DNA from: Leucoraja erinacea
Lineage: Eukaryota
Assembly (NCBI RefSeq): GCF_028641065.1
Contig: NC_073407.1
Span: 7,192,001 to 7,256,000 of the forward strand
Direction: 5' to 3'
Length of the DNA stretch: 64,000 nucleotides
This document shows positions 4,100 to 30,100 of the stretch, piece by piece. Below the pieces are notes generated by a model. That model saw nothing but the letters and a program-made list of their open reading frames with translations, made no database searches and had not been told where the DNA came from. Numbering within the stretch: the stretch's first letter is position 1; the number at the start of each line of letters is the position of its first letter. A program made the position numbers and the translations under genes.

Positions 4100-4480
4100 A
4101 TATGACATGAAAGCCACAATATTAATCGATGGGTCTCCATCAAAACCAGCCTGTGTGAAGAACAGTGTCAAACAAGACTGCATCATTGCCCCAACACTTT
4201 TCTCAGTCTTTCTTGTTGCACTTCATCTCCAAAAAACATCCTGCTGAGGTGGAGCTAACCTTCAGAAGTAATGGAAAGCAGGTCAGACAGTTCACACACT
4301 AGGCCCAGGGTCATCCAAACAGTGATAATTGATGTGGAGTGTGCAGTTGACTCTTACAATGGCACAGGTCAGACGCAGGGTCCCTAGCCATTGCCAATAC
4401 TTTCACTGAACCATATAAGAGGCCTCACACTGAACATTCACAAGACAAAGACTTGCCCCACTGCACCACATCACTCTCCC
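4100..4480 (+). mobile_element. Highly degenerate RTE-type LINE RT fragment
   Basis: Remnant VKQDCIIAPTLFSVF, resembling the RTE GVKQGCVLAPTLF motif. Confidence 0.55.
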
Positions 4481-5207
4481 TCAATAACCAAGCAGCAATC
4501 CCTGTAATACTCCACGTGTTACAACCAAACCATTTATTCCCACTTTTTGCCTTTTGTTTGTTAACCAATTCTCAATTCACTAACCATGGAACCGCGAGCT
4601 CCACGATGTTAAGTCTGCAGTCTCCCTGTGTTGGAGCTCCCGAACATGATCCCTGATAAAGAGATCGCAAGCTCCACGATCTTAAGTCCGCAGGCTCCCA
4701 CGGTTAGAGCTCCCGAAGTCGATCCCTAGCAAAGGGATAGCCAGCTCCATGATGATAGATCGCAGTGCGGACGGAGATACGTTACGGAAAAAGTCGCATC
4801 GCCACATTTCTATTATCTAAAAACTTGTTTTTCACTTTCCCCTTTGGTAAAATATTTCAATTTCATCTCAGTTGTTTTTGCTTCAATTTCCAAGAGAATA
4901 CTGTGTCTCTCTTCAATCCCAATTCCACGTGTCTCTCCACAGTTTCCCCCACCCCTTACATAATACAAAACTAGAGCTACACTAAAACATACGTTTAACA
5001 ACAGACTAAAACAACAAAAGAAGAAAAAGATAACCGGTTGTGGAAAGGGGATCAGAAATGGGGGGGGGGGGGGGGGGGGGAGGGTTGGGGAGGGAGGGGG
5101 GGAAGTCATGGAGAGTGACCAGGGTGGGATGTCATTCAAAGGAAAGAGGATGTGATAACAAATTAACAAGGCTTCACAAACCACTGTATGAAAATAACCT
5201 GCAATTT

Positions 5208-5588
5208 GAAACATAGAAAATAGGTGCAGGAGGGCATTTGGCCCTTCGAGCCAGCACCAACATTCATTGTGATCATGGCTGATCATCCCCAATCAATAAC
5301 CCGTGTCTGCCTTCTCCCCATATCCCTTGATTCCGCTAGCCCCTCGAGTTCTATCTAACTCTCTTTTAAATGCATCCAGTGAATTGGCCTCCACTGCCCT
5401 CTGTGGCAGAGAATTCCACAAATTGACAATTCTCTGGGTGAAAAAGTTTTTTCTCAAATCAGTTTTAAATGGCCTCCCCTTTATTTTTAGACTGTGGCCC
5501 CCTGGTGCTGGACTCCCACAACATTGGGCACATTTTTCCTGCATCTAGCTTGCCCAGTCCTTTTATAATTTTATTAGTTTCTATAAGG
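5208..5588 (-). mobile_element. CR1 LINE 3' end
   Basis: [15 protein letters not shown] motif, 3' UTR and gaaacatag tail. Confidence 0.88.
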
Positions 5589-6635
5589 TTCTGTGTTTAT
5601 TCCGGGTTTTATTTTGTTATGTTGATCAGAAATTGGATAATTATTGAGAAAACAGGTACTATTTTTAGGTCTTTTTTTAATATAGCACCCATTACAAATC
5701 ATCCACTGGAGAAGGTAAACACCTGCTGTTTTCAGTTGAAAGATGACATCTCCAACAGCGCATCACTCCACCACGACTGCACTGGAAGGTGAGTCAACGA
5801 AATGTCACCTATTCCTTTTTTCCAGAGATGCTACCTGATCTGCTGAGTTACTCCAGCATTTTGTGTCTACTTAGGTGTGTCTTGATGTTGTGCTCAAGCA
5901 TCACCTCCCATTTCAGAGGTGAAAACAGTGCCATCTGTTAATGAAACATGCTGCTGCCATCCGTCTTGTCGAAACAAGTTTCATGCAACAGCAGACAACA
6001 TTCTAACTCCTATTCAATCTTATATTTCCTCATGTTTTGACCATTGCCACCCACGCCCCTTTATTCAATTTCGTTTGACTTTTGTTATTTAACTTTTGGC
6101 TCCCCTTTTCCCGTTCTTTAGCATTGATTCATTTCCATTATCCAAAAACCTGTTTTTCCCTTTCCCCATTTAATCTCAGTTGTTTTTGCTTCAATTTCCA
6201 AGAGAATACCGTGTCTCTCTTCAATCCCAATTCCACATGTCTCTCCACAGTGAAAAGACAACAATTTCACCACTGTTTTCCGACTTGCTCTTTAGTCCTC
6301 TAAGAACACAAAAAAATTTGCAGACGGTATTGCTTTAGCAAGTTTTAATTCCAATTTGAACCCACATTGCTGAAGACGATACCATCTAGTGGTAAGTCCA
6401 AGAACTGATCACATTGAGATCAAAAGCATCTATTCTATTCTATTCTATATTCTATACTACAATGTATTGCTAAAACGCTCATCTTGACCACTTCCGGTTT
6501 GCGGTTTTTTTAATTTGTGCAAAAACGGTAACCTATATCGTTAGGATTGTCTTTTGCCATCTTATTCACCGTTCTCCTCTGCTCCAAGCGCACCAAGTTT
6601 TGTTCCAATCGGTGAAATATTAGAAAAGTTATGAA

Positions 6636-7423
6636 ACATAGAAACATAGAAATTAGGTGTAGGAGTAGGCCATTCGGCCCTTCGAGCCTGCACCGCCATT
6701 CAATATGATCATGGCTGATCATCCAACTCAGTATCCCGTACCTGCCTTCTCTCCATACCCTCTGACCCCCTTAGCCACAAGGGCCACATCTAACTCCCTC
6801 TTAAATATAGCCAATGAACTGGCCTCGACTACCCTCTGTGGCAGAGAGTTCCAGAGATTCACCACTCTCTGTGTGAAAAAAGTTATTTTCATCTCGGTTT
6901 TAAAGGATTTCCCCCTTATCCTTAAGCTGTGACCCTTTGTCCTGGACTTCCCTAACATCGGGAACAATCTTCCTGCATCTAGCCTGTCCAACCCCTTAAG
7001 AATTTTGTAAGTTTCTATAAGATCACCTCTCAATCTCCTAAATTCTAGAGAGTATAAACCAAGTCTATCCAATCTTTCTTCATAAGACAGTCCTGACATC
7101 CCAGGAATCAGTCTGGTAAACCGTCTCTGCACTCCCTCTATGGCAATAATGTCCTTCCTCAGATTTGGAGACCAAAACTGTACGCAATACTCCAGGTGTG
7201 GTCTTACCAAGACCCTGTACAACTGCAGTAGAACCTCCCTGCTCCTATACTCAAATCCCTTTGCTATGAAAGCTAACATACCATTCGCTTTCTTCACTGC
7301 CTGCTGCACCTGCATGCCTACTTTCAATGACTGGTGTACCATGACACCCAGGTCTCACTGCATCTCCCCTTTTCCTAGTCGGCCACCATTTAGATAATAG
7401 TCTGCTTTCCTGTTTTTGCCACC
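6636..7423 (-). mobile_element. Young 5'-truncated CR1 LINE inserted in the Helitron
   Basis: Open 204-aa ORF ([14 protein letters not shown]...WNSLP), (aaacatag) tail, flanking atgaa direct repeat at 6631-6635 and 7424-7428. Confidence 0.93.
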
Positions 7424-7639
7424 ATGAAGGTTTAAAAATCGTGGGATCAGCAGATTGGTCTTCTCGCCTGTCATCACCATGAAGGTAACGCCCCTTGCAG
7501 CACCCGCGGAGAATACAGATTCCCCGGAGGCAGAGAGCCTCTGAGTGAAGTCGGAGTGGGACCTGGACTGGGAGCTGTGCTTGAGGCCGAAAGCTGAAGT
7601 TGCGGGGTGAGCAGAGTGCGAGCTGCGTCTGCTGCGACC

Positions 7640-7978
7640 ACCCTCCTTCCCCCCCTCCCCATACCCCTCCCCCCCACCCACACCTCCTCCCCCCACATCC
7701 CTCCTCCCCCACATCCTCCGCAACCCACCTCCCCCACCTCCCCCCCCCCTCCTCCCACAGCCCCTCCTCCCCCGCACCCCCCCTCCCCCACACACCCCCA
7801 CCCCTCCCTTCCCCACGCCCTCCCTCGCACCCCCACACCCCCCTCCCCCCCCCGCACACCCCCTCTCCCACACACCCTCCCCCACACCCTCCCTCTCCCA
7901 CCCCCCACAAACCCCCACTGCCCACACCCCCCACCGTTCACCCCCCCCACTCCCCCCACCACCCTCCCCCCACACACA
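7640..7978. repeat. C-rich low-complexity tract (G-rich on minus)
   Basis: Runs of C separated by A/T; source of the spurious Pro/Gly ORFs. Confidence 0.9.
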
Positions 7979-10581
7979 TGAAGGGGAAGGGGGGCGAGTG
8001 CTGGATATGAGGGGAAATGAGCCGCGCCTGCGCTGTTAGAGTCTACGGGTCAGTTGTGGAATATTGCTTTGGGGGAACGGGTTGCATTGGGGGGACCAGG
8101 ATTCCCGTGTGACTGGGACTCAACGGATCCCACTTAGTCTAGTATTTCTTATCAGGGAAGCTGCAGAGTCACCGCAGAGCTATGCAATACGGAAACAGGC
8201 CCTTCAGCCCAACTGGTCCATTCAGTTAAACCGAGCTAGTCCTACTTGACTGTGCCTAACTCTCCAAACAAGTAAGTATTTCATTGTTCTGCCTGGGACA
8301 AATTACAATAAAACACTCTTGACTCTTAACCTTTCCTATTGATGTACCACTCCAAGTGACCTTTAAAGCTCGTAATTGTCCTTGCCTCTACCACTTCCTC
8401 TGGCAGCTCATTCCACATATGCCGCACTCTGTGTGAAACCCCTTTAAAAATCTTTCTCCCCTCCTTTTAAACTTAAGTTCTCCAGCCTCAGACTTTCATA
8501 TAAAAGGGAAAAGACTGTGGCTATCCACCTTATCTGTGTCCCTCAGGATTTTATAAGCCCGTGCAACCTCTCCCTATGGATAAGGTTCCCAGGTCCTGGA
8601 AGCAACCTGATTAATCTTCCCTACAATCGTTCCAGCTTAATAGCATCATTCCTTTAGCAGGTGACCAAAACTGAACACAATATTCCAAATGCGGCCTCAC
8701 CAATATCTTGTACAATGTACATTAGGTGGTGCTGTGCGATGGCAGTCTCGCCATCGGTCTGTCTTATCCGTTTCTTCTTTTGTTGTTTTTTGTCTGTCAT
8801 TAAACGTATGTTTTAGTGTATCTTTACTTTATGTGGGGGATGGGGGAAACTTTAAATCTCTTTCCTCGACAGAGATGTGACTTTTCCGTATCGCATCTCC
8901 GTCCACACTGCGATCTAACATCGTGGAGCTGGCGATCCCTTTGCTGGGGATTGACTTCGGGAGCTCAAAGCCGCAGGAACTTCGACCGCTGCTGCTGTGG
9001 GAGCTTTGATTGCCCCGACTGAGGATGGTTCGACTGCCCCGACCACAGGAGAAAAGGGGGGAAGAAGACAATACGTTATTGCCTTTCGTCACAGTACGCT
9101 GTGGTGGATGTTTATGTTAATTTTCATGTAGTTGTGTGTCTTGTGGCTTTTTTGGTATGACTATATGGCAAAGCAAATTCCTTGTATGTTTTTACATACT
9201 TGGCTAATAAACTAATTACAACACAATACATAACGTCCCAACTTAATACTCAATTTCATGACTGATGAAGGTCAGAGTGGCAAAAGCCTTCTTCGCTACC
9301 TTATTTACCTTAAATACCACTTTCCGGAACCAGGCACTAGTACGCCCAGGTCCCTCTGCTCTGCACTGCTCCCCAGTGCACTACCGTTCATTGTGAAGGT
9401 CCTGTTCCAGTTTGACCTCAAAATGGAACATTTATCTGAATTAAACTCCATTTGCCATTCCTGGGCCCACTTGCCAATTGCAGTTACTGATCTACACTGA
9501 TCTACATAACCATCTACACTGTTTAAAATATCACCTATTTTGGTGTTATCTGCAAAACCTACGCATATTCTCGCAGCCTTTTTGTCTAATTTTCATCTCT
9601 GGACTTTATCCGCCCATCTACTTATCAACCCTCTTCACTCGGCATGTTTTGTCCCATCCCCAACACTCTTCCAATCCCTCCTCGTCCCCCCACTACAATC
9701 GGTTTGAAGATGGGTCCAACCCAAAATAGTGCCTTTCAATGTTCTCAATGTTGCCCAATTTATAGAGTGATTGGCTAGTTAGAATCAGAGTGGATATTTC
9801 CTCTGGCTAGGAGTCCAGATCTACGAATCACAGTCTCAGATATAGGGAAACTGATATGAGGAGTAATCTTCTTGTTCAAAGGGTATTGAATCTTTCGAAT
9901 TGCTCACTTTGGGCTATGGAGGATCAATCATCAATTGAGATTAATCAAAAGAGGTACAACGGTATTTTATTTATCACATTAATAAGAAGGAGGTGCATGG
10001 GAAGCTAAAAGGGCTGAATGTGGAAAGGTCATCTGGGCCGGATGGACTACACCCTAGCATTCTGAAGGGACAAATTTGCTGGAATTCTGTGAAGATGTAA
10101 ATAGCAGGCCAAAGGAGAGTCAATAGATGTTGTTTACTTAGATTTATATAGAAAGTCTTTGATATGGTGCCACATGTTACGCTGCTTAGGAAGATGAGAG
10201 CCCACGGTATCAAAGTGCAGAAACTAGCATGGATAGCAGGTTTTTTGGGGTTTTTTTTTAAATCAAAAAATGTATTCAATTATTAAAAATAATATTTACA
10301 GTACAATAAAACAAATCAGAACCCATCACCATAATTACCTATCTATATTACTAAAAGTCTGTTCTTGACCGGTTTTGGCTTTTTGTGCTGCGATTTCCGA
10401 GAGTACGCCGCCACCTACGGCTGTCATTTTTGTCCACCTCGCTCAGAGCTCCCCTCCGCCGCATGTGTGCCGAGGATTTTTCCCGTCGATGAAAATTGAC
10501 CGAGATATTAATGTTTTTACAAAATTCCCCATTCTCTCTGCTACCCCTGCTGGAGGGAGGGGGAGGGACTATAAAACCAGG

Positions 10582-10660
10582 AAGTGGTGTGCCTCAATCA
10601 GTCTATGCAAATGGTGTGCCTCAATCAGTCTCTGCAAGTGGTGTGCCTCAATCAGAGCTC
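10582..10660 (+). repeat. 27-bp tandem repeat x3 inside the Helitron
   Basis: aagtggtgtgcctcaatcagtc(t/a)tgc units; visible as repeated KWCASISLC in the ORF track. Confidence 0.9.
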
Positions 10661-10792
10661 TGAATGACACTGACAAATGTCTACAGCACTGTGAGCACCC
10701 TTAATTTGGTTTGAAAATGAAAATATGGTTAGAGGTAAAAAAGCACTGCCTGCAAATGGTTGTTTGGGTTTGGGTTGAAGTAAAAAGGCAAT

Positions 10793-11330
10793 CTCTCTCC
10801 CCCCCCCTCTCCCTCCTCTTCCCCCCCACCCTCTCCTCTCTCCCCCCCTCTCCTCCCCTCCATCCCCTCCCTCGACAGTCCCTCCCCTAAAGACCACTCC
10901 CCTCCACACACTTCTCCCCCCCCCCCCCCCCCTCCTCCCTCCACCCTCCTCCCCCTCCCTGCTCCCCACCTCTCCCCCTCACCTCACCCCCTCTCCTCCT
11001 CCCCTCCCCGACCCTCTCCCATCCTCCCCTAAATCCCCCCCTCCCCCACACCCCCCTCCCCCCCCTCCCCCTTCCCTCCCCCCTCCCTCCCACTCCCTGC
11101 TCCCCACCTCACCCCCTCTCAGCACCCTCTCTCTCCCCTCCCCCTCCCCCTCACCCTCTGTCTCTCCTCCCCATCTCCCCCACCTTTCCCACCTCACCCC
11201 ACCCTCCCTCTTCTCCTCCTCTCCACCCCTCATCCCTCTTGCCCTCTCTCTGTGTGTCTCTCTCTCTCTGTCTCTGCCCCTTCTCTCTCTGCCCTCACTC
11301 TCTACACCCCCCTCTCTCTCTCTCTCTCTC
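10793..11330. repeat. C/CT-rich low-complexity tract inside the Helitron
   Basis: Polypyrimidine C-runs followed by (CT)n. Confidence 0.9.
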
Positions 11331-13379
11331 TAGATGTGACTGCAAGTTGGGGGCTATGCGTCAGTAGATAGGGTGGTTATGGGGTAAAAGGAGCAAATTA
11401 ATAATTTAATATAATATCAAGGGGGGTAATTAGCGTGAGTGCGGGGGGGGGGGGGGAATAGTTAGTGTGTGTGACGCTGCATGTCGCCTCCCCCCCACAA
11501 CCGCACGTTGGGGGAACAGACCCAACGGGTCTGCACATGGTCTAGTACCAAATAAACTACTGTACAGCTATGTTACAATCCTTGTCCAGGATGCATTCAA
11601 CCTCCCGCGGTGCCCAGCTGTCCTGGAAATCCCCCGGGGTGCTCGTGTACAGCGTATAGTCCATCTCTAACAGCACCCAGGCACGGACGTAACCCCGGAA
11701 AAGGGGCAGGCAGCCGGTTCGGCAGAGCCCTCTTCCGCCTGACGCCGTGACTCGCGGATGGCCAGCTTGGCCAGGCCCAGGAGCAACCCAACCAGGACAT
11801 CTTCGGCCCTACCCTCTCCCCTACGCACAGGGTGTCCAAATATGAGGATAGTTGGTGAGAAATGCAGCCAGAAGGCAAGGGAGCAGCCCCTTTAGATAGT
11901 GGAACAGAGGCTGCAGCCTCACACACTCCATATACATGTGGTACACAGACTCTTCCAGCCTGTAAAAATGGCAGGCGGCTGGCAAGTCTGTGAACCACGA
12001 GAGAAACAGGTTGCAGGGGAAGCATTGGTGCATTACCCTCCACCCCAGGGCCCCGATGTAGAGGGGGAGAGCATGGATAGCAGGTTGGCTGGAACGTCAG
12101 ACAAAGAGTGGCAATAAAGGGGCTTTTTCTGGTTGGCTGCCATTGATTAGCAGAGTTCCACTGCGGTCGGTGCTGGGTCGATGCTCTTCACGTTGTATAT
12201 TCATGATTTGAACGAGGGGATTGAAGGATTTGTGGCTAAATTTGCGGATGATGCAAAAATAGATGGAAGGGCAGGTAGTGTAGAGAAACCAGGGACTTTT
12301 CAGAAGATCTTGGACAGGTTGGGAGAGTGGGCAAAGAAGTGATAGATGGAATATAGTAACAAAGTTTGGAGTCATGCATTTTGGTAGTAGGAATAAAGGC
12401 GTATGGTATTTTCTAAATGGGGTGAGAATCCAGAAATCAGAGGTGCAAAGGGACTTGGGAGTGCTGATGCAGGATTCCCAAAAAGTTAATCTGCAAGTTG
12501 AATCGGTAGTAAAGAAAGCAAATGCAATGCTAGCATTTATTTCAAGAGGGCTGTATAGAAAAACAGGGATATAATGTTGAGGCTTTGTAAGGCCCCATTT
12601 GAAATATTGTGAGCAATTTTGGGCAACATTTCTGAGGATGTGGTGGCTCTAGAGAGAGTCCAGAGGAGGTTCACAAGAATGACCCCAGGAATGAATAGGT
12701 TAACCTATGATGAGCGTTTTTTGGCACTGTTCTTGACCTGACCATGAAGGACTGTCGCCCTGGTGGCATTGCAGGATCGGCCTGGCCAAACGTGGCCGTT
12801 GGAGTAAGAAAGTCTAAAGCAGTGTCATGACCCAAAACATCAGTTATTCATATTCTCCAGATGCTGCCTGAGTTATTTCATCACTTTAGATTAAGAAAGT
12901 GGTGTTTGAAGCAATATCAGCAACGATCTTGCCTTATCCTGTGTCAGAATAGCCCAAAGGGTAAATGGCCTACTCTTGCTTCTATTTCATCTGTTCTTAA
13001 TTAAGGCTATGTAGGTATCAAGGTAGACTAGAAAAATCACTGGGAAAGGAAATGGCGCATCCGGAGGATATGTATGAGAATTTTATTTGCTATTTGAAAT
13101 ATTTAAGGACTTTTGGGGGGGTGGGGAGAGGGTGAAGAAACCAGTGCAAGGTTATCCATGGTTCAGAGTAGGGAGTCGGGGGCAAAAGGTAAGGGAAGGA
13201 GGGCTGGTGATTTTGCGGGGAGACAGGAAGGGAAAGGTGTTTGTAGAAGTTACCTGAAATTGAAGAATTCAATGTTCATACCCTTGGGTCATAAGGTACC
13301 CAAACACAATACAGTATGAGGTGCTGTCCCTCCAATTTGTATGTGTTTTCATTCTGGCAATGGACGAGGCCGACAACAG

Positions 13380-15075
13380 AAAAGTCAAGTCAAGTCAAGA
13401 GAGTTTATTGTTATGTGTCCCAGATAGGACAATGAAATTCTTGCTTGCTGCAGCACAACAGAGTATTGTAAGCGTAAATACAGTACAGTTCAGTGTGTCT
13501 ATTTTGCATAGACCATATATATACACACACATAAATAAACAGATAAAGTGCAATAGGCTGTTATAGTTCAGAGTTTGTTTGATGGTGAGTTTAATAGCCT
13601 GATGGCTGTGGGGGAGAAGCTGTTCCTGAACCTGGATGTACCCGATTTCAGGCTCCTGTACTTTCTACCTGATGGCAGCGGAGAGATGAGTGTGTGGCCA
13701 GGATGGTGCTTGATGATGTTGGCAGCCTTTTTGTGGCAGAGACCGCGATAGATCCCTTTGATGGTGGGGAGGTCAGAGCCGATGATGGACTGGGCAGTGG
13801 TCACAACTTTCTGCATTCTTTTCCGCTCCTGGACGCTCAAGTTGCCAAACCAAGCCACGATGCAACCAGTCAATATGCTCTCTACAGTGCACCTTTGACA
13901 TACCGACTCTCCGTAATCTTCTCAGGAAGTAGAGGTATGATTATGAATTATGAATTATGCTTTCTTTATAATTGCATCTGTGTGCTGGGACCAGGAAAGA
14001 TCTTCGGAAATATGTACGCCCAGGAATTTGAAGTTCTTGACCCTTTTCACCATCGTCCTGTTGATATAAACGGGATTGTGGGTCCCTATCCTACCCCTTC
14101 CAAAGTCCACAATCAGTTCCTTGGTTTTGCTGGGGTTGAGAGCCAGTAATTCGTCCCACAACAGTGGTATCGTTGGCGAACTTGATGATGGAGTTCACAC
14201 TATGATGATGGAGTTCACACCAGCTACACAATCACGAGTATAGAGTGAGTACAGCAGGGGGCTGAGCACGCAGCCTTGAGGTGCTCCCGTGCTGATTGTT
14301 ATCGAGGATGACACATTGTCACCAATACGGACAGACTGTGGTCTGTGGATGAGGAAGTCGAGGATCCAATTGCAGAGGAATGAGCAGAGACCCAGATCTG
14401 AGAGCTTGGTAACCAGCTTGGAGGGGATGATGGTGTTAAACGCCGGGCTGTAGTCAATGAATATCAGCCTAACATATGAGTTTCTGTTGTCCAAGTGGTC
14501 CAGGGCGGAGAGGAGAGCCAGTGAGATCGCATCCACCGTTGATCTGTTGTGGCGGTAAGCGAACTGCAGTCAGTCGAGGTTCTTATTGACGTAGGAGTTG
14601 ATATGCGCCATAATCAACCTCTCAAAGCACTTCATCACCACAGACTGTAGTGTCACTGGTCGATAATCATTTCACGTCACCTTCCTCTTCTTGGGCACCG
14701 GTATTATTGATGCCCTTTTAATGCAGGTGAGAACCTCAGATCTCAGAAGTGAAAGGTTGAAAATGTCCGTAAAAACGCCAGCCAGTTCGTCCGCACAGGT
14801 TTTTAGAACACGGCCAGGTATACCATCAGGTCCAGGTGGTTTCCAAGGGTTCACCCCCCTGAAGGATCTTCTGACGTTGGCCTCTGAGACTGTGACTGAA
14901 ATATCATCACGGCGAATGGGGGCTCGGGAAGGCACATCAGTGTTCTCCCTATCAAATCATGCGTAAAACGCATTGAGCTAGTCAGGGAGTGATGCTTCGC
15001 TGACAATTGAGCTGCCTCCTGATTTCGCCTTGTAGGAGGTGATGGCATTCAAGCCCTGCCACAGTTGCCGAACAT
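13380..15075 (-). mobile_element. Rex1/Babar-type LINE, 5'-truncated and frameshifted
   Basis: [40 protein letters not shown] and FKFLGVHISEDL motifs; (cttga)n tail. Confidence 0.9.
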
Positions 15076-15084
15076 GCCGAACAT

Positions 15085-15235
15085 GTGGAAATGGGGAGTT
15101 AAAATGATTAGCAACCGGAAGATCCAGTAAACCTCGGTGGACTGAGTGTAATTGTTTAACAAAGCGATCACCGAATTTACACTTGGTCTCGCCGATGTCA
15201 TAGAGGCCACATCGGGATGCAGTGGATGAGGTTAG
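15085..15235 (-). mobile_element. Penelope-like element GIY-YIG endonuclease fragment
   Basis: Minus-strand remnant IGETKCKFGDRF...DLPVANHFNSP. Confidence 0.65.
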
Positions 15236-15241
15236 TTATTC

Positions 15242-16049
15242 CAGGGCTCGAAATTAGCGGTTGCCCGGATGCCACTGACTACCCAAAGTGCCGCCGGGCA
15301 ACCTAAACGGCGAGTCATTTTGCCCGGCTTGGCAACTTGGTTTATACCTAACATAGACACAAAAAACTGGAGTAACTCCGCGGGTCCGGCAGTATCTCTG
15401 GAGAAAAGGAACGTGACGTTTTGTGTCGGCGGCGGTTGTGGGAAAGATGCTAAGTGTGACGTGACGGAGGGTCGGAGCGAATCACGGGCCCCGCACAGCA
15501 GTGGAGGCGGTTCCATCTCCTCCTCCCGCACCCCGCCCGGCCCGATAAAGGCCGCTGCTGCCATTCCGCCAACGGCGCTTTCAAAACAGATCCTGTTTTG
15601 TGAATGCTTCATTGAGCATATTCCGACTGGTAACTACGCACTTTGTCCGAACACGCGTCATGCAAGCCATCTTAAATGACCACCTAAACTGTCATTTGGC
15701 AACCTGAAAAGCTGCCAAGGTTACACAGAAAAGCTGGAGAAACTCAGCGGGTGCAGCAGCATCTATGGAGCGAAGGAAATAGGCAACGTTTCGGGCCGAA
15801 ACCCTTCTTCAGACGCGTTTAAGATGGCTTGCATGACGCGTGTTCGGACAAAGTGCGTAGTTACCAGTCGGAATATGCTCAATGAAGCATTCACAAAACA
15901 GGATCTGTTTTGAAAGCGCCGTTGGCGGAATGGCAGCAGCGGCCTTTATCGGGCCGGGCGGGGTGCGGGAGGAGGAGATGGAACCGCCTCCAAAAGCTGC
16001 CAAGGTTGCCCGGCTGGCAACAGGGAAAAAAGGTTAAGCGAGAGCCCTG
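15242..16049. mobile_element. Non-autonomous DNA transposon with short TIRs (hAT-like ends)
   Basis: Ends CAGGGCTC...GAGCCCTG, subterminal ggttgcccgg motifs at both ends, flanked by TATTC on both sides. Confidence 0.6.
15785..15814 (-). ncRNA. Putative minimal hammerhead ribozyme motif in a Penelope-derived terminal repeat
   Basis: Minus strand GT-CTGAAGA-A-GGGT-TTCG-GCCC-GAAA-CG-TT-GC: CUGANGA and GAAA core boxes, helix II with a UUCG loop, and a vestigial ACGU helix III. Confidence 0.6.
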
Positions 16050-16283
16050 TATTCCCACACTGACCTTTCTGTCCTGGGCTTCCTCCACAGCCATACTACT
16101 TCTCTGACCAGTTTGACTGTCCTGATAAAATTTTATCTTTTTATGCTTCGTTGTAAACTTCCTCTAGCTAACTTGAACTTCGTCCCCTTTGATGTCTCGT
16201 TTTCACACCTTACACTTCCCTATCTCTGTGTCTCCCTCTCCTCTGACTGTCCGTCGGAAGAAGGGTCTCGACTCAAAATGTCA

Positions 16284-16505
16284 AGGGCCTGCCCCACTTG
16301 ACGATTTATTCGGCGACTGCCGGCATCATTGACTGACAATCAGGTGACCGAAAAAGCTGCGGCGTGATGACGTATTGACGCAGTGTTTTGCAAGTGTCGC
16401 AACATTTTTTTTGTCGCCCCTGGATTTTGAAATGTTCAAAATCTTTTGGCGACCCTGATATGACGCCAGCAGTCGCCGTAAAAAATCGGCAAGTGGGACA
16501 GGCCC
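16284..16505. mobile_element. MITE (PIF/Harbinger-like) inserted into a Penelope repeat
   Basis: TIR gggcctg(c/t)cccacttg.cgatt...aatcggcaagtgggacaggccc; tca duplicated at 16281-16283 and 16506-16508. Confidence 0.72.
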
Positions 16506-16899
16506 TCACCCATTCTTTCTCTAGAGATGCTGCCTGTCCCACTGAGTTATTACAGCATTTTGTGTTTAGCTCCATTTGTTCGCCTCGTACTTTACTCGAA
16601 TAATTACTTTAAATTCCTCATTTAATTTAATTTAATCCCTTGAAAAAAGATATTTTCTGGATCTTGTTTATTCCGTCCTTCTGCCATTTATTTCTTATTA
16701 TTAATTCCCCCTGCTTCTCCAGGGGACCACTAGTTAGTCATGCTGTTAATTTCCTTTTTATACATGAAGAAATCCGTATTTAACGTTGTATAACCTTTCC
16801 CTGCTCACTCTACTCCAAGTGCTGACTATTGATTGAAAAATGATAAGCTTTTACCACACAAAAGGTGAAAATTCCAGAATGGGGTGGAGGCGGGAGGCA

Positions 16900-17230
16900 T
16901 GACGCACGGCCGGTGAAACCTCCGATCGACGTGGTGACGTGTGAGGGGACTGCCGCGACGTCTGCACTGATTGACATCCAATGGGAGCGGAAGGTGGAGG
17001 TGAGCTGGCCGGCGACGTGTGGCCTGGCCAATGGTGCGGGAGGGAGTGGGCGGGACATGGGGCGGGCTGTGACGCGACTGTCCGGAGCCGGTACGTGTCA
17101 GCCACCGGAGTGGCCAGCGCCAACCCGCCGCCCAATCAGCCGCCTCCAACGCGGGCGCCGCCGGCCAATGGCAGCGCTCCACGACGAGGAAGTGGCTGGT
17201 CTATATAAAGCGCGGAGCGGCGGGCGCGGA
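16900..17230 (+). promoter_or_regulatory. HSPA5 promoter: CpG-rich, with ERSE elements, CCAAT boxes, CRE/ATF-like site, GC boxes and TATA
   Basis: Perfect ERSE CCAAT-N9-CCACG at 17165-17183; ERSE variant CCAAT-N9-CCAAC at 17132-17150; further CCAAT at 16978 and 17028; TGACGTG at 16935-16941; TATATAAA at 17202-17209. Confidence 0.92.
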
Positions 17231-17231
17231 C

Positions 17232-17280
17232 CGGCACATCAGTGAAGCGGCGGAGGGAGCAGTGAGTGGCAGGTACAGCG
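17232..17280 (+). other. Probable non-coding first exon of HSPA5 (start approximate), spliced to the acceptor at 18063/18064
   Basis: Lies about 25 nt after the TATA box; donor gcg|gtgagt at 17281; polypyrimidine acceptor tttgcctctttag ends at 18063, 38 nt before the ATG. Confidence 0.7.
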
Positions 17281-18101
17281 GTGAGTACATGCACCCGGCA
17301 CCTGGGTGGCAGCTTGCGGTCTGACTCCCGGGGGAGCAAGGGGTAACCTGGACACCTGCAGGCCGGCACCGGGAGGGGGAATCCTGGGCACCGGTTCATT
17401 GATGATCCGCTTCATTCCCCCCACCCCCCCGGTCCTAGACCGGCCTGTCTTTCGACCAATGCCCTCGAGTCCTAAACCAACGTTACATCTTCGGGGGAAA
17501 TCTCCGAGAATTGGCCAGGCCCACGGTGTCGATGGATTCGCCCCCCCAGGCGTGGGCCCACCATTGCGCGGGGAGCCCGACAACGCATGTGGCGCCTAAC
17601 GTGGGCTGCTCATAAAATGGCTTCCGGAGCGCTGCGCCGCTGCAGCCCCATTGAGCTTTTGTTCAAGGCTAGAGGTTGACTGGTGCCCGCTCACTCAATG
17701 GCCCAATCGTTGCAGTCACGACGTGATCAACTAACATGTATGGGTCTGTGTAGACAAGGAATGTTAGTTTGAAATCTCCCTGTTGTGATTGGCAGGTTGT
17801 CTTTACCGGCTCGCAGGCTGTGTTGGTAATTGAGCAGGTTGTCTTTTCAAACCTAGTTATTCCATTTGTGATTCCACCATGACGTCGAGACTGGGTAGCG
17901 ATCAGATTGTCGTCAATGAATGAACGAACCAGACGCGTTTTAACTATATAATAGATCATTGGCAAACTCTTCTGGTTTCAAGTTTTATTCCACGTATGTT
18001 TAAGAACAATTGCTTTTGGAAAATTATAGACATTTGCTGAGTTGTTTCTTTTTGCCTCTTTAGATTTTTCACACTACATTAGAGTAGTAAATTCGCTCAG
18101 A

Positions 18102-21945
<3,844 letters not shown>

Positions 21946-22251
21946 TAAGGACTCTAATTTTGTAAATAATGGATTTGAACTTTACTGTTTGGAGAAAAAA
22001 AAATATCAGAATGATAAGGACTAACTCTTGAATGTATGTGCAGAATTTTTCGCTGAATGGCGAGAACATTTGAAATGATCTAGAACTTCCATTGCAGTTT
22101 CAGTATCAATTATCTGGAGGGAGAACTTAATTGGGAGAAAATAGACGTCAAGGGTTCCGAGTACAATGTTCTCCAAATGCACATTTTTCTATTTATTTGA
22201 AATCTCATGTTTGGTCTGTGTAAGTGTAGAAAACATTTTCTACTGGTGACC

Positions 22252-22257
22252 AATAAA
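22252..22257 (+). terminator. HSPA5 polyadenylation signal
   Basis: AATAAA about 310 nt after the stop, followed by T/GT-rich sequence. Confidence 0.7.
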
Positions 22258-22631
22258 TGTTATGTTTGATATTAAAATTTCTCAAGCTTCTTGACTTGAG
22301 GTTAAAGACCATCACCATCTGCAATTTTGGGGTTTGCATTGCTAAAGTTAATTAACCTACAGCCTAATTTAAATTTGATTTGGAATATCTAGTGAGGTTG
22401 CACACTACATTTTACAGATTAAGTATCTGCAAATGGCAATGGGACAACTGCCTTGGGTTGAGACTATTTCCCACCACTGATACTGCCACCTGCTGGAGTC
22501 TTGAGCAAGAATGCCTTGTCTGCAAACAAGTTTAGCCTCTGATCTGAGCTTTGGCAACTTCAGTTGAACGATCTAGGTCAAGAAGTAAAGAATGCTATTG
22601 GGGCTTTCTGCATCCACCACAAATGCACTGC

Positions 22632-22918
22632 AAGACGACCGGAAGGTAGCCAGTTCGAATCCCGCTTGGAGTGCATACTGTCGTTGTGTCCTTGGGGAAG
22701 ACACTTCACCCACCTTTGCTTGCGTGTGAATGTGTGAGTGATTGGTGGTGGTCGGAGGGGCCGTAGGCGCAGATTAGCAGCCACGCTTCCGTCAGTCTGC
22801 CCCAGGGCAGCTGTGGCTACAGAAGTAGCTCACCACCACCGAGTGTGACTGAGGAGTGAATGAATAATGCGATGTAAAGCGCCTTGAGTATCTAGAAAGG
22901 CGCTATATAAATCCCATC

Positions 22919-22950
<32 letters not shown>
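22632..22950 (+). mobile_element. 5'-truncated tRNA-derived SINE with an L2-type 3' end (AFC-like)
   Basis: B box GTTCGAATC at 22653-22661; core gtcagtctgccccagggcagctgtggctac; tail tgtaaagcgccttgag...aggcgctatataaat followed by (TTA)n. Confidence 0.75.
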
Positions 22951-22951
<1 letters not shown>

Positions 22952-23451
22952 ATACCCAACAATTGTTGGTATAATGGTTTTAAATCAGAACAACAGAGCT
23001 CAAGTGCCTCTTTCTATGCTGTGTCTTTAATTCAGTTACAAACATATCCAGGTTATCATATGATGAAATTAGGTAATTGTATGGTCTGTAAGGTAGTCTT
23101 ATTGCAGCTATTCCACTAAATGCAAAATGGGAAGAATCGATAATGGTAAATTTTCCATTTTTTAAATCACTTGTACATTAAATGCAGTCTTCTGCCTAAT
23201 GCCTAACTCCAATCATTTGGTTGCCCTGATGTGACAAATTGCATTTTGCACTACCAGAACCACTATGATCAAATTATTTATGATACAGATTAACAGACAT
23301 TTAAATGATAAATGCAGTAATGTACCGAGTTAATTTCTTATGTTAGTTTGAGCAGTACATTCATCAGAATTTGATGCGAAATTAAAGCAGGTAGATTTAG
23401 ATTTATACTTTCGGCCATCCGACAGTGACTAGGAAGGGTTCATCAGGAAGT

Positions 23452-23457
23452 TTTATT
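23452..23457 (-). terminator. Candidate RABEPK polyadenylation signal
   Basis: TTTATT on + (AATAAA on -), about 400 nt after the stop. Confidence 0.45.
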
Positions 23458-23856
23458 GATATAAATGTTACAAAACATGATTTAAAAAAAAACAAAAAAA
23501 AACTGAGAGGGTCATAAAGCGATGGGTGATCTGGTCTATAATGCATTGTGACAGCAAAATAGCCAAATGATGTTGGCGCATTACCATGTGTTCTCACTGC
23601 AATTGACAAGTTGAATTCTGGCTCCAAGGAGCCACTGCAGATGCTGGAATTTTGAGAAAAAAACAAGTGCTGCAGTGACTAGGGGTCAAGCAAAATCTAT
23701 GGAAGGAGTGGATATACTCAAAACACCCTGACCTGAAATGTCAGTCCACTCCTTCCCCCCCCCCCCCCCCCTTAAGCAGTTTGTTTACAAGACTGCTGCA
23801 GAACACAAGGATGGGAAGAGGATACAAGACAAGTTGGACATCTGAAAAATATGCTG

Positions 23857-24167
23857 TTAGCAGCCCTTGAGAAGAGTTACAAAGCAGTCGTTGAAAATTT
23901 CACCTTGAGTGTCCATACCACCAAATACCAAGCACAGGTGCACAATGCTCTTTGTCTGACTTTGAATTGCTGAGCAATTCATAGAGGTGGGATGTAGGTT
24001 GTTACCACTGGTACATTCCTCGTTTTCTTCAGCTGGTAGTTTCTCATTTGTTCCTGGAGTATCTGTTTCTGCTTTCCTTATTTTCCAGGGTATAATGCAC
24101 ATGGCATGATCCAATCTTTTTGTAGGTAGAGAAGAGTCGAATTCTAATAAGGTCCAGCATTGTGTCT
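23857..24167 (-). CDS. RABEPK: RABEPK last coding exon
   Basis: ETQCWTLLEFDSSLPTKRLDHAMCIIPW...CLVFGGMDTQGEIFNDCFVTLLKGC stop. Confidence 0.93.
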
Positions 24168-27100
24168 CTGGTAAAAATGAAATTGATATGTACTTGAATA
24201 ATTTGTCATTATTCTGAAGTTCCAATCCAATTATCTGAATTATTGTTGAGCAAGCTTTATATTATTATACAATTTACTGGGAAGTGTCAGAAATAATTGT
24301 GATGATTAAGGAGCCTTGCAAAAGGGAAAACACAGGCTTGTCTTTACACAAGACCAATGCCCACTCATTTAACTCCATATTTCTTTTAAATATACTTGGT
24401 AACCAAAAACAGGTTAACTGGAGCTGGAGTTAACTACTGCTAACTCCTGACCCCCAATGTACATTTGGTATAACTGATTCACCCAGCTAGTGAATAGTAC
24501 AGGGGTCAGGTCGAAAGGAGGGCTACTAAAAAAAAGTGTGCTAAAGAGCAGGAAAACAAAAACTAAACTAAGGGGTTCACTAGCAAAAGAAGTGCTCTCC
24601 TTTGAATTTTACTGAATAATGAAGCATGGTTCATTTTCTTAAAGTTATTGGGACTAGCTTCTTGGATTGATTTTCAAACTGATATGCCCATTGAGCGACT
24701 TGTGCTGAGGGTATTGTAAGGACTTACCGATATGATACTTGTACATGGTGTTCAGTGCTCCAGTAGCATCCAAACCACCAAAGATGAAAATATACTTTTC
24801 ATGGGAAACTGCAGAATGAGCTGCACGTCCATCTGGGATATCACCCTTCATGTTTATTTTTTCCCACATCATATTAACGGCAGCTGTTCATCACAAAAGA
24901 TGTTGTCAATGCATACTTCATAATGGCAATTTACTTTCATGTTTACCTAAGAGCAGAGTTCTACAATGCATGTTATTTTCCTTTATCATTTTTTTGTTGA
25001 ATTTAGTGTGCATAACAATGTCCACAAATGCAATCCACCATCAAATCTCTGCACAGAACTTACCTGTATCAATGGTATACATATCATTAAAAAAACGGTC
25101 TCCTGCTAGTCCTCCATGAATGAATAGCTTGCTACCAACAGCAACCATCACATGGCCGTGCCTTGGGGCTGGTGGTTTTCCTTCTGTTGATTTTTGGGAC
25201 CAGCGGAGTGTAGCTAAAAATATACAAGGGGCAAGGTAGATATATGTGCATTAGATATTAACTAACATGTTTATTTTTTAAACATAAACTGACCAAGTTA
25301 ATCACCTGATCTGAACCCAATTGATAATGCCTTTTATATGCTGAAGGGGACTAGCCCCCAAAACAAGCATAAGCTAAAGATGGCTACAATACGGTCCTGG
25401 CAAAGTATCACCAGAGAAGACACCCAGCAATTGGTGATGTCCATGAATCGCAGACTTCAAGCTGTCATTGCATGCAAAGGATATGGTCTCGGCTCAGTCC
25501 TTTTATGAGGAGCTTTACGATAACTTTATAAATGTTGTTTTCTATCATTAAGATTACTTGAGGGTCCCAACCCGAAACGCCACCAGTGTATTCCCACCAT
25601 AGAAACTACCTGACCCTCATGAGTTCATCCAGCACTGTTTTAATTAAAATCAAAAGTGTCAAATTTAAAGTATTTTAGAAAATCCAATATCAACAATTTT
25701 TGTTTTGGTTTTCACCTGCTCAAAATCTTTTACTTGAGGATGTTTAATTCTACCTTTATCAAATGCATGGAGTTGTGGATCTTGTACGGGCTCCGCTCCC
25801 TTGTCTCCTCCACCAAAAACATAGAGGCAATTTCCAACAGCTGCAGTAGAACCGTGACATGTTCGAGGTGAGGGTGGCGTCCCATTTGTGATTGGACTTC
25901 TCCATTCTCCAGTTTCTGGTTTAAAAAACGGAATAAAATAATATTATTTTTGACTAATAACCAACTGGTTTCCTTTTTGGAGAAGGAAGTAAATCAGTGA
26001 AGCTGGGGTACGATTCGGGTTGAGACCATTCTTCAGAGTATACCATCTTTGGTATCCTTTTCTAATAATTCTTTATTAAAGGCAGCAATAATAAATTTTG
26101 TTTCATTGACAGAAGTATTCAAAATTATAACGTTTGCACTATTTGTAGCTGACGAGTGGCAAGGGAATCAAAGTAGTAAAGTAAAGCAACTTTACCGAAG
26201 TTCAAAACTTGGATACAGTTTCTGTTGCCACATTCATCTGCTCCGCCAAAGAGCCATAGCCCAGTGGGTGTAGTGACTGGAACAAAGCTGGCGTGCTCAT
26301 AGCGAGGCAGTAATCCCTTCCACTTTGGCGCATCCCATTCATGTCTGTCTGTTTAATGGGGAACAAAATTAGCCACTGTACAATAATAGTCGCAATCTTG
26401 CAAAGAGAAATAATCTTAAAGTGAAATCTGATACAATGTTAATTATTATCTAACTAGATTTACAAACAAGGAACGGTTTGCTCGATGAGGTTTCTGGCAC
26501 ACACAGGATCTATGAGCATATGACATCAAATGCAGCTCTGAAAATATAATTAAAGGTGACTTACTGAGTTGGAATTGGAGCAGAAAATAAGAAAGGGTTA
26601 GAAACATTCCACATTACATAATTGGATGCGTATATTGCACAAGGACTCCAGAGCCCCATCATTACATCAACACCCTAATTGGATAATTTGAGAAACTCAC
26701 CCATTTAGACTAGTCTGTGTTCTTGTGAAATTTTCAATGATAAGCTCAATGGATATTGTATTATTTTAAATTATTTTAACATCACATATATTAACCATCA
26801 GTATAGTAGGCATACATTTTGTTTACAGATGTTACAACTTTAGCAACTAACGTCAATGTTAATTAACTACGTGATCCTCACCATTACATGCACATTTGAA
26901 ATCTATGATGTGACTCATTCACATGTGAGACTCACTTAAGGAAAGGCAAGACTGCATATGTCTTCAGGGTAATCCACTGTACATATATGCTAGAGGACCC
27001 TGAGCTCCGTTCAGTGTCTTTTCTGTTATGCTCAAGCTATTCTTCCCTAACTAATCAGCATCGGCGGTCACTCGAAACGAGTGACTGTCCTCTCCATAGG

Positions 27101-30100
27101 GTCGTCTACTGGTCTGCAGATGTCTGTAGAGGACGATCTGCGATCCACACACCTTAGTGCAACGTGGGCAGTGGAGACTGGCGGTGGATGGTAGTCGTCG
27201 CAGCTCCTTCCTGCACAGATTTCCTCCAGGAGTGCCTGTCCAGTGCAATGTGCTCCCAGTTGCTTGATGTGATGTGGAATTTCTTCAGACTGTTCTTGAT
27301 GTTGTCCTTGAAGCGTTTCTTTGGCTCACCAACCTTCCTTCAATTGAGAGTACAGGATTTGTTTAGGGAGACGTGTGTTGGACTTGCGGATGACATGGCC
27401 AGTCCATCGAAGTTGGTGCTGCATTATTGTGGTGGTTATGCTGGTCATGTTGGCTTCCTCCAAAATGCTGATGTTGATGCTTTTGTCCTCCCATCTGATC
27501 CTCAGAATCTTTTGTAAGGATCTTTGATGGTATTGTTCCAGGGCTCTCAGGTGCCTGCTGTAGGTGGTCCATGACAACAGCTCTGTAGACCAGCAGTTTT
27601 GTTAGAGCCTTTAGGTCTCGGTCTTCAAAGACTCTTTTCCTGAGTCTGATGTAGGCTCCGCTGCCACAACTCAGGCGATGGTTTACCTCAGAGTTGATGT
27701 CACCTTTTGAGGAAAGAATGCTGCCAAGGTAGGGGAAGTGGTCAACGTTTTCAAGAGTGGTATCGTCCACCTTTATGGTTGGCTGGGTAGATAGCTGGTT
27801 GGGTGGAGGTTGATGTAGGACCTCGATCTTCTTGATATTTAAGGCTAGGCCATTCAGGATGCCCTGGAGGTCTTCTGCAGAGTGTGCTGCAATTGCGCAG
27901 TCGTCTGCGTACTGAAGCTCTATGATGGTGGTGTTACTGACTTTGCTCTTGGCCGTAAACCTATTAAGGTTGAAGAGCCCACCGTCAGTTCTGTAGAGGA
28001 TTGCGATCCTCCGTGGCAGCTCTTCACCAATGAGGTGAAGTATGGCAGCAATGAAGACGACAAACAGGGTGGGTGAGTCGACAGTGAAGGGTTCGGACTC
28101 GGAGACGCAGTTGCTGAGCACTGTGACCGACATGCCATCATGCAGAAGCTGCAATATTCTGATGTACTTGTCGTGACACCCGTACTTTGATAGTATGCTC
28201 CAAAGAGCCTGGCAGTCTACCGAGTCAAAAGCTTTTGTCAGGTCTATGAAGGCCATGTACAAAGGTTACACAGCATTTTTCCTGGAGTTGGCAAGCTGTG
28301 AATATTATGTCTGCTGTACCTCTGGATGGGCGTACACGAGCTAGGAATTTGCCTGTTGTTGACAGGAGCGAGATGCCCTGTAGTTTCCACATTCAGCTTT
28401 GTCCTCCTTCTTGAAAATGGTCACTATTAAAGCATCCCTGAGTTCTGAGTGAAGTTCTTCTTTTTCCCCAGACCTTGAGGAGTAGGGCGTGGATGTGGTA
28501 CAGGAGCTCCGGTCCACCTTCCTTTAAGATCTCAGCTCGGATTCCATCTGGACCGGTGGGCTTGTTGTTCTTAAGGCTCTTGATGGCATCTTGAACCTCT
28601 GTCATAGTGGGAGGTTCTTCCATGTCTTCTCTGATGGGACTCTGGGGCATGAGGTGGGTAATGTCTGGTTCAGTTGTGCTGTCACGGTTGAGGAGTTCCT
28701 GGAAGTGCCCATTCCATCGGGCGTTAATGGACTCATTGTCCTTCAGCAGTTCTTGTCCTTCTTTTGAGCGCAGGGGGGTTAAGCTGTGGTAGCTTGGACC
28801 ATGGATGGCCTTAGTAGCACTGAAGAAGCCTCTGGTGTCACCCGAGAGCACTTTCCTTTGATTGGAGATGAGCTGTTCTATCTCAGTGTCGTTCTCGTCA
28901 AACCAGTCATGGTGTTTTCTGGACTTGCACCCAAGGATGTTTTTACAGGTATCAAGGATGGTGGATTGAGCCAGCTCCAGTGCCCTTCAATATCATCAGG
29001 ATATTCCTGTTGGAGGCTTTCCCCAAGAGAAGCCTTAAGTTGCGGCTGGATGACAGTTTCCTCCAGGCTTTCGAGCCAGATCTGCTTTGTTTGAATCCTC
29101 CTCTTCCTCTTGAGTTTGATGGGCATCATGGAGCGGATGAGGAGATGATCTGTCCAGCAGTCATCTGCATCGATCATGGCCCTTGTGATGTTCACGTCCT
29201 GGCTCGTACAATGACACAGTCAATAATATGCCACCGACCTGGGGCTCCAGTCGCGGAGCCTGCGGACCTACTACCATCGCGGTGCTGGCCGAGTTCGGAG
29301 CAGGAGGAGCTGTGGTGACGCGCTGTTGCGGCCCGACCCCGGAGATTCGGATGCTCCAGCCGCAGGTCTGGTGGACGGTGACACCGGGAGCCCGCGGGTC
29401 CCTGGTGGGAGACCGCTTTTCGGGGCTTCCGCAACGGCGACTTCTCCCGCCCGAGTTGCGGGGATAAGGATGTCCTGGAGCAGGGTCTTACATCGCCTGC
29501 CGCGGCTTTAATGGCCGCGGGACTTACTTACCAACGCCCGCCGGGGGCTTTGACTGACATCGGGAGGAGAATGGGGAGTGCAGGGGAGAGATAAGACTTT
29601 GCTTTCCATCACAGTGAGGAGATTCGCTTTGATGGATGTTTGTGTAAATTGTGTTGTGTCTTGGTTCTTCTACTTGTTTGTATGACTGCAGAAACCAAAT
29701 TTTGTTTGAACCTCTGTTCTTTCCTACGGTACCCTTCCAGTGGTGTTGGTCCCGGCCGACCCTGGAGTTGAAGTCTTCTAGGAGAATAATCTGGGGATTT
29801 TAGACAGTGTCTCATCCAAGCAAGTGTCAAAAGGTCTCTTTTACTTCCTCTTCAGAAGCTAAAGTAGGGTCATAGGCACTCACAACTGTTGCCATCTTGT
29901 TGTTGGCAAGCACCAGACGGATGGTCATGCGACGCTCACTGATTTCCACAGGAAGTTCAGAGAGGTGGCTGATGAGCTGGTTCCTGATGGCAATAACACA
30001 TTGTGAATTCACAATGTATCACCATTTAGCCTTAACAAAACCATATCAGCAATTTATCTTAATGTTTTTACTTAATACTTTTTGTTATATTTTGTTCAAA

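What the first reader, a model, noticed from the sequence alone, without database searches (positions are those of the whole stretch)
15785..15814. Minimal hammerhead ribozyme core in the most abundant short repeat of the window
Seen: the repeat gtctgaagaagggt(c/t)tcg(a/g)cccgaaacgt(c/t)(a/g)cc...ctccagagatgctgcctg...gagttactccagc recurs about 20 times. Examples are 9700, 15785(-), 16255, 19618, 25560, 26010(-), 30213, 40225(-), 45165/45193, 47975, 54795 and 55408. The best copy reads CUGAAGA-A-GGGU(UUCG)GCCC-GAAA-CG-UU, with 5' GU pairing to the GC/AC after the cleavage triplet. Established: Penelope-like elements carry minimal hammerheads with an almost absent, palindromic (here ACGU) helix III that cleave as dimers. 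At 47555-48055 the repeat is contiguous with a GIY-YIG remnant, tying it to Penelope. Inference: introns of all three genes are seeded with ribozyme relics, and intact sense copies could cleave pre-mRNA in tandem or in trans.
Basis: partly seen in the sequence, partly recalled or inferred. Interest (0 to 1): 0.7.

Follow-up and report, generated by a model that had tools for sequence, protein, structure and literature searches.

The report
Penelope hammerhead seeds abundant short repeats
The motif is a real minimal hammerhead-ribozyme sequence at the front end of a young Penelope-type jumping gene, a known arrangement; most copies are short pieces that likely came from uncut RNA, and nearly all copies in this window are broken, so cutting of host gene transcripts is unlikely.

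Summary
Confirmed: 15785-15814(-) has every letter of a minimal type I hammerhead. The repeat has 24 copies in the window and 22,457 exact cores in the genome. It is the first ~95-135 nt of a young Neptune-like Penelope element (RT, Cys linker, GIY-YIG; start codon 166 nt in). This class was described in 2014, and the scan noted it before in three other genomes. The host-cleavage idea is not supported: 1 of 24 window copies is intact, and it is intergenic, 1.4 kb upstream of HSPA5. Intronic copies are broken (9 sense, 6 antisense), and the hammerhead fold is predicted 4-11 kcal/mol above an inactive fold in five of six constructs. Extra result: of 126 copies picked by sequence downstream of the cut site, 90 start within -7..+13 of the core, at an initiator-like TCAGT, and 1 at the cut site. 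Most copies are therefore likely run-off copies of the uncut 5' leader, primed at the internal 'tail' sites. A weak excess of ends exactly at the cut site (about 1% of copies, 2-3 times neighbouring positions) may record rare cleavage in vivo.

The parts
15783..15814 (-). Intact minimal type I hammerhead: helix I 5' strand 15814-15813, core CUGAAGA 15812-15806, unpaired A 15805, helix II 15804-15793 with UUCG loop, GAAA 15792-15789, palindromic ACGU 15789-15786, predicted cut between 15785 and 15784, helix I 3' strand 15784-15783
   Evidence: sequence; descriptor check
15719..15814 (-). Short insert of the young subfamily: begins 2 nt before the core and ends at the first of the two usual 3' end points, without the ~35-nt tail
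15708..15722 (+). 15-bp target-site duplication, left copy; its last 4 bases overlap the insert's 3' end
   Evidence: empty-site joint 15706>15992 in reads and contigs of other copies of the host repeat
15993..16007 (+). 15-bp target-site duplication, right copy
15818..15992 (.). 175-bp inverted copy of nearby flanking DNA (15502-15676), 100% identical, lying inside the duplication at the insert's 5' junction; shows a very recent insertion with a templated addition (mechanism inferred)
47547..47810 (+). Broken C-terminal part of the Penelope GIY-YIG endonuclease (stops and frameshift)
   Evidence: longer relatives match Pfam GIY-YIG below the curated cut-off
47974..48055 (+). Older-subfamily repeat downstream of the endonuclease remnant; hammerhead destroyed by a deletion
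55406..55467 (+). Near-intact older copy (core complete, helix II 3 of 4 pairs), sense strand of a PPP6C-like intron
45104..45277 (.). Inverted pair of copies, both starting inside the core
1..55888 (.). The other 19 decayed copies start at 1, 1088, 5798, 9699, 12811, 15354, 16250, 16506, 19617, 23663, 25561, 26004, 30212, 40161, 42951, 43238, 54786, 55752 and 55834
17165..21960 (+). HSPA5/BiP-like gene with an ER-stress element at 17165 and spliced exons (context)
   Evidence: gene name inferred from the Hsp70 match and C-terminal KDEL
23860..30534 (-). Kelch-repeat gene exons, RABEPK-like (context; limits approximate, name from recalled gene order)
36897..57720 (+). Protein phosphatase gene, PPP6C-like (context)

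Best explanation
The motif is the minimal hammerhead at the 5' end of a young Neptune-like Penelope element, and the many ~95-135-nt copies are likely run-off cDNAs made from the element's uncut RNA leader. Shown: the unit reads TCAGT, hammerhead, first 3' end point, ~35-nt tail, ATG 166 nt after the A, then an RT-linker-GIY-YIG frame and a ~115-nt pyrimidine-rich 3' UTR followed by the next hammerhead; short copies have sharp 3' ends at two points and 5' ends clustered at the TCAGT. Inferred: transcription starts at or near the initiator-like TCAGT; the element's protein primes reverse transcription at the two internal sites, as shown in vitro for the anole element; priming in the 5' leader runs off after ~95 or ~135 nt, while priming in the read-through copy gives the longer pieces with 3' UTR and endonuclease; priming on both strands gives the inverted pairs. 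The ribozyme is predicted to sit in an inactive fold and would cut only rarely, with protein help or as a dimer. After insertion the copies decay and likely do nothing to host transcripts.
For: Element link: hammerhead ~120 nt after the stop of RT+GIY-YIG frames in 19 of the 20 long-frame loci whose output was in view or partly in view (part of the output was cut), Pfam RVT_1 E 3.8e-06 and GIY-YIG E 0.0055, both below cut-off; conserved ATG frame after the tail in 26 of 29 loci. 5' ends: 126 copies anchored downstream of the cut site: 31 run on upstream, 56 end at -7..0, 34 at +1..+13, 5 at +20..+28 (p 1e-14 against uniform). All 34 upstream-running copies tested share 122 nt or more with another copy. 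Genome-wide: 22,457 exact cores, 14,855 keep AGT, 12,494 keep CAGT. Older subfamily: 10 of 16 truncated copies end at -7..+1 (27 copies, 11 extended). Copies that continue into the body: 12 tandem, 7 start at -7..+2, 2 scored at +28, 8 start further 3' or are rearranged, of 29 scored. 3' ends cluster at +60..+68 and +101/102 after the cut site. 42 of 95 truncated copies carry an inverted piece. PMC11167929 shows internal priming at two sites that define the tail, uncut RNA as the main template, and protein-assisted cleavage. Active fold 4.3-10.8 kcal/mol above the minimum in five constructs and 2.2 in the shortest. Decay: 5 of 107 copies intact in 264 kb; changes at helix II position 4 are uncompensated.
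Against: No transcription start was mapped: RNA reads show no pile-up of ends on the element. No cap-derived G excess before the A (G 32, A 42, T 26 of the first 100 listed; p 0.12). The 5' ends spread over about 8 nt and a few reach -7. The initiator reading rests on recalled consensus. In D. virilis Penelope the start lies 46 nt plus a 75-nt intron upstream of the ribozyme, so the layout differs. The young-family sample comes from the first 5.6 Mb of one contig, and end calls are from ungapped extension, which misplaces copies with small indels.
Confidence: 0.62

Rival explanations
1. Same element and ribozyme, but the 5' boundary is a reverse-transcription stop or joining hotspot, caused by RNA structure or by the small palindrome TCAG-T-CTGA, on templates that extend further upstream.
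For: The predicted fold pairs the 5' part of the core with sequence after the cut site, so a long hairpin ends near this boundary; inverted junctions use the palindrome; no cap signature.
Against: The clustering also holds for copies without inversion (35 of 53 at -7..0) and for the older subfamily. Polymerases usually stall on entering a hairpin, not on leaving it (general knowledge). The boundary is also the start of the unit that carries the ATG.
Confidence: 0.22
2. The short copies are a separate non-autonomous SINE-like family with its own master genes.
For: Very high copy number (53,582 exact 29-mers), narrow length, target-site duplications.
Against: Short copies and full elements share the same subfamily sequence and end points; no private 5' head was seen; the apparent GCG start in my first search was an artefact of the query (58 matches).
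Confidence: 0.1
3. One reading: intact sense copies cut host pre-mRNA in tandem or in trans.
For: Repeat RNA is abundant as a passenger in transcripts, on both strands (14,223 of 12.9 million reads in one run, 94% running on into unrelated sequence), so partners exist; about 5% of copies are intact. A preprint reports retrozyme depletion from introns in Xenopus.
Against: No fully intact intronic copy in this window; 9 sense versus 6 antisense; helix I has only 2 pairs; double-hammerhead dimer is predicted far above the alternative dimer fold; published minimal hammerheads cut weakly even as dimers.
Confidence: 0.06

Closest known systems
Minimal hammerheads (min-HHR) in pLTRs of metazoan Penelope-like elements (Cervera and De la Pena 2014, PMC4209133)
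   Same: [quoted passage not shown]
   Different: Helix I has 2 pairs (as in D. virilis) and helix II 4 pairs; 22,457 exact cores against about 4,000 and 9,000 motifs reported for coelacanth and Xenopus. The parts read do not describe a sharp 5' boundary at the ribozyme.
Anole Poseidon element PAc (Frangieh et al. 2024, PMC11167929)
   Same: Hammerhead at the pLTR-ORF junction, two internal end points that define a tail, uncut RNA as template.
   Different: In PAc the frame starts inside stem II and the priming sites lie in the ORF; here both lie in a 166-nt leader before the ATG, and the protein has the Cys linker that Poseidon lacks.
Neptune clade of Penelope-like elements (features as given in Craig et al. 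2021, PMC8557442)
   Same: RT followed by CX2-5CxxC linker and C-terminal GIY-YIG; 5' truncation, partial tandems, inverted 5' pieces, 30-40-bp tail.
   Different: No tree was built, so Nematis is not excluded; clear 10-16-bp target-site duplications were seen and no microsatellite preference was noticed (not counted).
Non-LTR retrozymes (bioRxiv 10.64898/2026.07.22.740005)
   Same: Short hammerhead-bearing repeats derived from Penelope pLTRs in vertebrates.
   Different: Those are tandem arrays with a ribozyme in each unit; these are dispersed single or inverted inserts that start before the core, not at the cut site.

Membership tests
Minimal type I hammerhead of PLEs | CUGANGA and GAAA boxes with a U-H cut site | tested here: met
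   boxes are the majority in three subfamilies
Minimal type I hammerhead of PLEs | Extra nucleotide before helix II and G10.1-C11.1 pair | tested here: met
   A at 15805, G15804-C15793
Minimal type I hammerhead of PLEs | Palindromic, loop-less helix III | tested here: met
   ACGU in all subfamily majorities
Minimal type I hammerhead of PLEs | Helix I and II pairing kept across variants | tested here: inconclusive
   Two one-sided changes keep pairing (U-G 135 of 153 young; U-A 72 of 83 older; same switch at 2.1-1.1); no two-sided change
Minimal type I hammerhead of PLEs | Located in the pLTR of a PLE | tested here: met
Minimal type I hammerhead of PLEs | Self-cleavage as dimer or with protein | not testable with these tools
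   only an indirect, weak excess of copies starting at the cut site
Rfam hammerhead families | Match at gathering score | tested here: not met
   0 hits in the window
EN+ Penelope-like element | Single frame with RT and C-terminal GIY-YIG | tested here: met
   698-aa open frame in L153 with both (Pfam scores just below cut-off); no copy with a fully open frame from the ATG was seen
EN+ Penelope-like element | pLTR from partial tandems, inverted 5' pieces, 30-40-bp tail | tested here: met
Neptune clade | CX2-5CxxC linker between RT and endonuclease | tested here: met
   C-x4-C-xx-C before the GIY-YIG domain; feature from PMC8557442
Neptune clade | RT phylogeny | not tested
   no reference sequences were fetched
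Non-LTR retrozyme | Head-to-tail tandem units each with a hammerhead | tested here: not met
   window and sampled copies are single or inverted; arrays elsewhere in the genome were not searched

The most novel reading that the evidence does not exclude
The most abundant short repeat of this genome (one per 2.5 kb in the 264 kb counted) is the 5' leader of a Penelope element copied by run-off from an initiator directly in front of the ribozyme, so promoter and ribozyme share one sequence, and the ~1% of copies that begin exactly at the cut site are a fossil record that the minimal hammerhead does cleave in the germ line.
Probability: 0.25. Interest if true: 0.6.

Novelty: new member of a known kind. 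Interest (0 to 1): 0.35.

Why it matters
The class is known, so the motif alone is ordinary. The value lies in numbers: tens of thousands of young copies let one read the transposition cycle from the genome. The end maps agree with the only in vitro Penelope system (internal priming, uncut template) and give a direct way to ask the open question whether these weak ribozymes ever cut in vivo.

Tried and rejected
Rfam at gathering thresholds: 0 hits. A 'GCG-start subfamily' seen was a query artefact (58 versus 53,582 matches). Cap-derived G: not found. A 3' splice site at CAG before the core: rejected because many truncated copies keep the CAG and share no upstream exon. A splice donor after the tail: rejected, the GT is not kept in the youngest copies and the next bases are the ATG. 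Compensated helix II subfamilies: none among the first 100 of 2,644 matches. Folding z-scores of the unit are not significant (-0.93 to 0.34). Sequencing-run search: no RNA holder listed; raw reads were laid from runs added by species label or study, whose organism relative to this genome is unknown. Pfam found nothing on the two short window fragments. Only the 150 largest of 387 non-repeat frames were scanned for genes. Lunse et al. on dimer cleavage was not held. A genome-wide count of copies extending 10 nt upstream was not obtained; the local sample stands in for it.

Full report
Observation. The minus strand at 15814-15783 reads GU-CUGAAGA-A-GGGU(UUCG)GCCC-GAAA-CG-UU|GC. A profile from 206 genomic copies finds 24 copies in the window and 0 in five controls. 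Only 15785(-) is fully intact; 55406(+) has the core with 3 of 4 helix II pairs. In 264 kb of contiguous DNA, 107 copies were found, 18 with the core letters and 5 fully intact. Rfam has no hit. The genome is 2.19 Gb; that it is a cartilaginous fish is my recollection from the look of the repeats and was not tested.

What the repeat belongs to. The remnant at 47547-47810 translates to the C-terminal part of a Penelope GIY-YIG domain with 43,519 first-look candidates in the genome. Long-frame loci show RT, thumb, a C-x4-C-xx-C linker, GIY-YIG, a stop, about 115 nt of pyrimidine-rich 3' UTR and then the hammerhead (Pfam RVT_1 E 3.8e-06, GIY-YIG E 0.0055, both under the curated cut-offs). The linker marks Neptune and Nematis (PMC8557442). 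Copies that continue past the tail reach a conserved ATG about 166 nt after the A of TCAGT (ATG in 26 of 29 loci), and in L160 this ATG lies 3,766 nt before the next hammerhead. The repeat is therefore the 5' leader of a ~3.9-kb unit, which also appears at the 3' end as the pseudo-LTR. The young subfamily has 53,582 exact matches of a 29-mer behind the cut site and 22,457 of the 27-nt core.

Ends of the short copies. I took 126 copies found by the sequence behind the cut site in 84 loci from the first 5.6 Mb of one contig. Counting from C3 of the core: 31 run on into the 3' UTR, 56 end at -7..0, 34 at +1..+13 and 5 at +20..+28, one of them at the cut site (+28). All 34 upstream-running copies tested (this set plus three more under a slightly different filter) share at least 122 nt upstream with another copy, so the loss of ends is concentrated at the TCAGT. 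Genome-wide counts agree: 22,457 cores, 14,855 with AGT and 12,494 with CAGT in front (point mutations inflate the loss somewhat). The older subfamily shows the same (10 of 16 truncated copies at -7..+1), and so do copies that continue into the body (7 of the 17 non-tandem ones at -7..+2). The 3' ends cluster at +60..+68 and at +101/102 after the cut site, the known tail pattern. 42 of 95 truncated copies carry an inverted piece. The 15785 insert fits this: it starts at -2, ends at the first 3' point, has a 15-bp target-site duplication and carries a perfect 175-bp inverted copy of neighbouring DNA at its 5' junction; other copies of the host repeat show the empty site.

Mechanism. PMC11167929 showed for the anole element that reverse transcription starts at two internal sites that define the tail, that both strands are cut and extended, that uncut RNA is the main template, and that the ribozyme cuts only with the protein. 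Adding a transcript start at the initiator-like TCAGT (inferred; consensus recalled; an internal promoter in the pLTR is shown for D. virilis Penelope, PMC2377424) explains the short class as run-off from the 5' leader and the long class as priming in the read-through copy. Against this: no cap-G excess, no pile-up of read ends, ends spread over about 8 nt. A structure- or palindrome-induced stop remains the main rival.

Does it cut? All defining letters are present. Between subfamilies two positions change and both keep pairing on one side (U-G versus U-A in helix II and helix I), with no two-sided change. The active fold is predicted 4.3-10.8 kcal/mol above the minimum in five constructs and 2.2 in the shortest, because the 5' strand of helix II pairs instead with the bases behind the cut site; the double-hammerhead dimer gains nothing over monomers. 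To look for cleavage in vivo I counted copies with a non-consensus base at five adjacent positions and classed the first 30 loci of each. Estimated true 5' ends (two-letter classes): 165 (47-381) at +26, 113 (48-205) at +27, 339 (212-466) at the cut site, 63 (13-167) at +29, 152 (65-276) at +30. The excess is 2-3-fold and concerns roughly 1% of copies. It is weak: 8 of the 15 ends at the cut site are inversion junctions that a GC palindrome could favour, and without inversions the estimate (about 158) equals that at +26 (165).

Host genes. Pfam on the 150 largest of 387 non-repeat frames gives an Hsp70 gene (+), a kelch gene (-) and a phosphatase gene (+), read as HSPA5, RABEPK and PPP6C (names partly from recalled gene order). 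HSPA5's promoter is at about 17165-17235, and the next gene upstream, GAPVD1-like, has its first coding exon 47.6 kb before the window and a CpG island at about -38 kb. The intact copy and eight others are thus most likely intergenic. Of 15 copies inside genes, 9 are sense and 6 antisense, none fully intact. Repeat RNA is common as a passenger on both strands. Pre-mRNA cleavage here is unlikely.

Literature. PMC4209133: parts 1-2 of 4 of the text (abstract, results, discussion). PMC11167929: parts 1-2 of 4 (whole main text). bioRxiv 10.64898/2026.07.22.740005: parts 1-2 of 5 and passages; it includes one cartilaginous fish. PMC8557442 and PMC2377424: passages. PMC6765202: passages and half of one section. 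Lunse et al. on dimer cleavage: not held, known only through that review. Searches for this 5' boundary or for cartilaginous-fish Penelope hammerheads returned nothing specific, but the library lacks most subscription papers and repeat databases. No supplements were opened; the motif alignments of PMC4209133 and the genomic coverage figure of PMC11167929 may already show such motifs or this boundary. The scan's own notes list the same class in three other genomes (unchecked AI notes).

Verdict. A correct catch of a known kind of element. New member of a known kind, interest 0.35; the end map is a modest addition that makes the in vivo cleavage question testable.

Noticed in passing
window 15818-15992 and 15502-15676: A perfect 175-bp inverted duplication of flanking DNA lies inside the target-site duplication of the insert, likely a template switch at the 5' junction.
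   Followed up: partly
window 15813-15809 region and all young copies: In full copies the boundary sequence TCAG-T-CTGA is a palindrome around the first core bases, and the ACGT of helix III lies at +27..+30 from the A, where Drosophila LINE-type promoters have an ACGT-containing downstream element; shared use by promoter and ribozyme is a guess.
   Followed up: no
window 17165-17183: A perfect CCAAT-N9-CCACG ER-stress element and a TATA box precede the HSPA5-like gene (motif identity recalled).
   Followed up: partly
window 36500-37000: CpG island shared head-to-head by the kelch gene and the phosphatase gene, likely a bidirectional promoter.
   Followed up: no
window 27366-28265 (-): 300-aa open reverse-transcriptase frame in an intron of the kelch gene, not masked by the sampled repeats.
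   Followed up: no
window 61990-62529 (+): Tc1/mariner-type transposase fragment (Pfam HTH_Tnp_Tc3_2).
   Followed up: no
window 15240-16100: The insert sits in a high-copy repeat whose empty form appears in RNA reads and DNA contigs; it looks like a small non-autonomous DNA element.
   Followed up: partly
L096:4926 and 5665-5670: Single-cell reads join the element's first 3' end point to a position 740 nt upstream in the same element; probably one tandem genomic copy.
   Followed up: no
L160 (minus strand, about 1.9 kb after the ATG): The element's frame has a long proline-rich, repetitive stretch between the N-terminus and the RT, making the protein about 1,200 aa.
   Followed up: no
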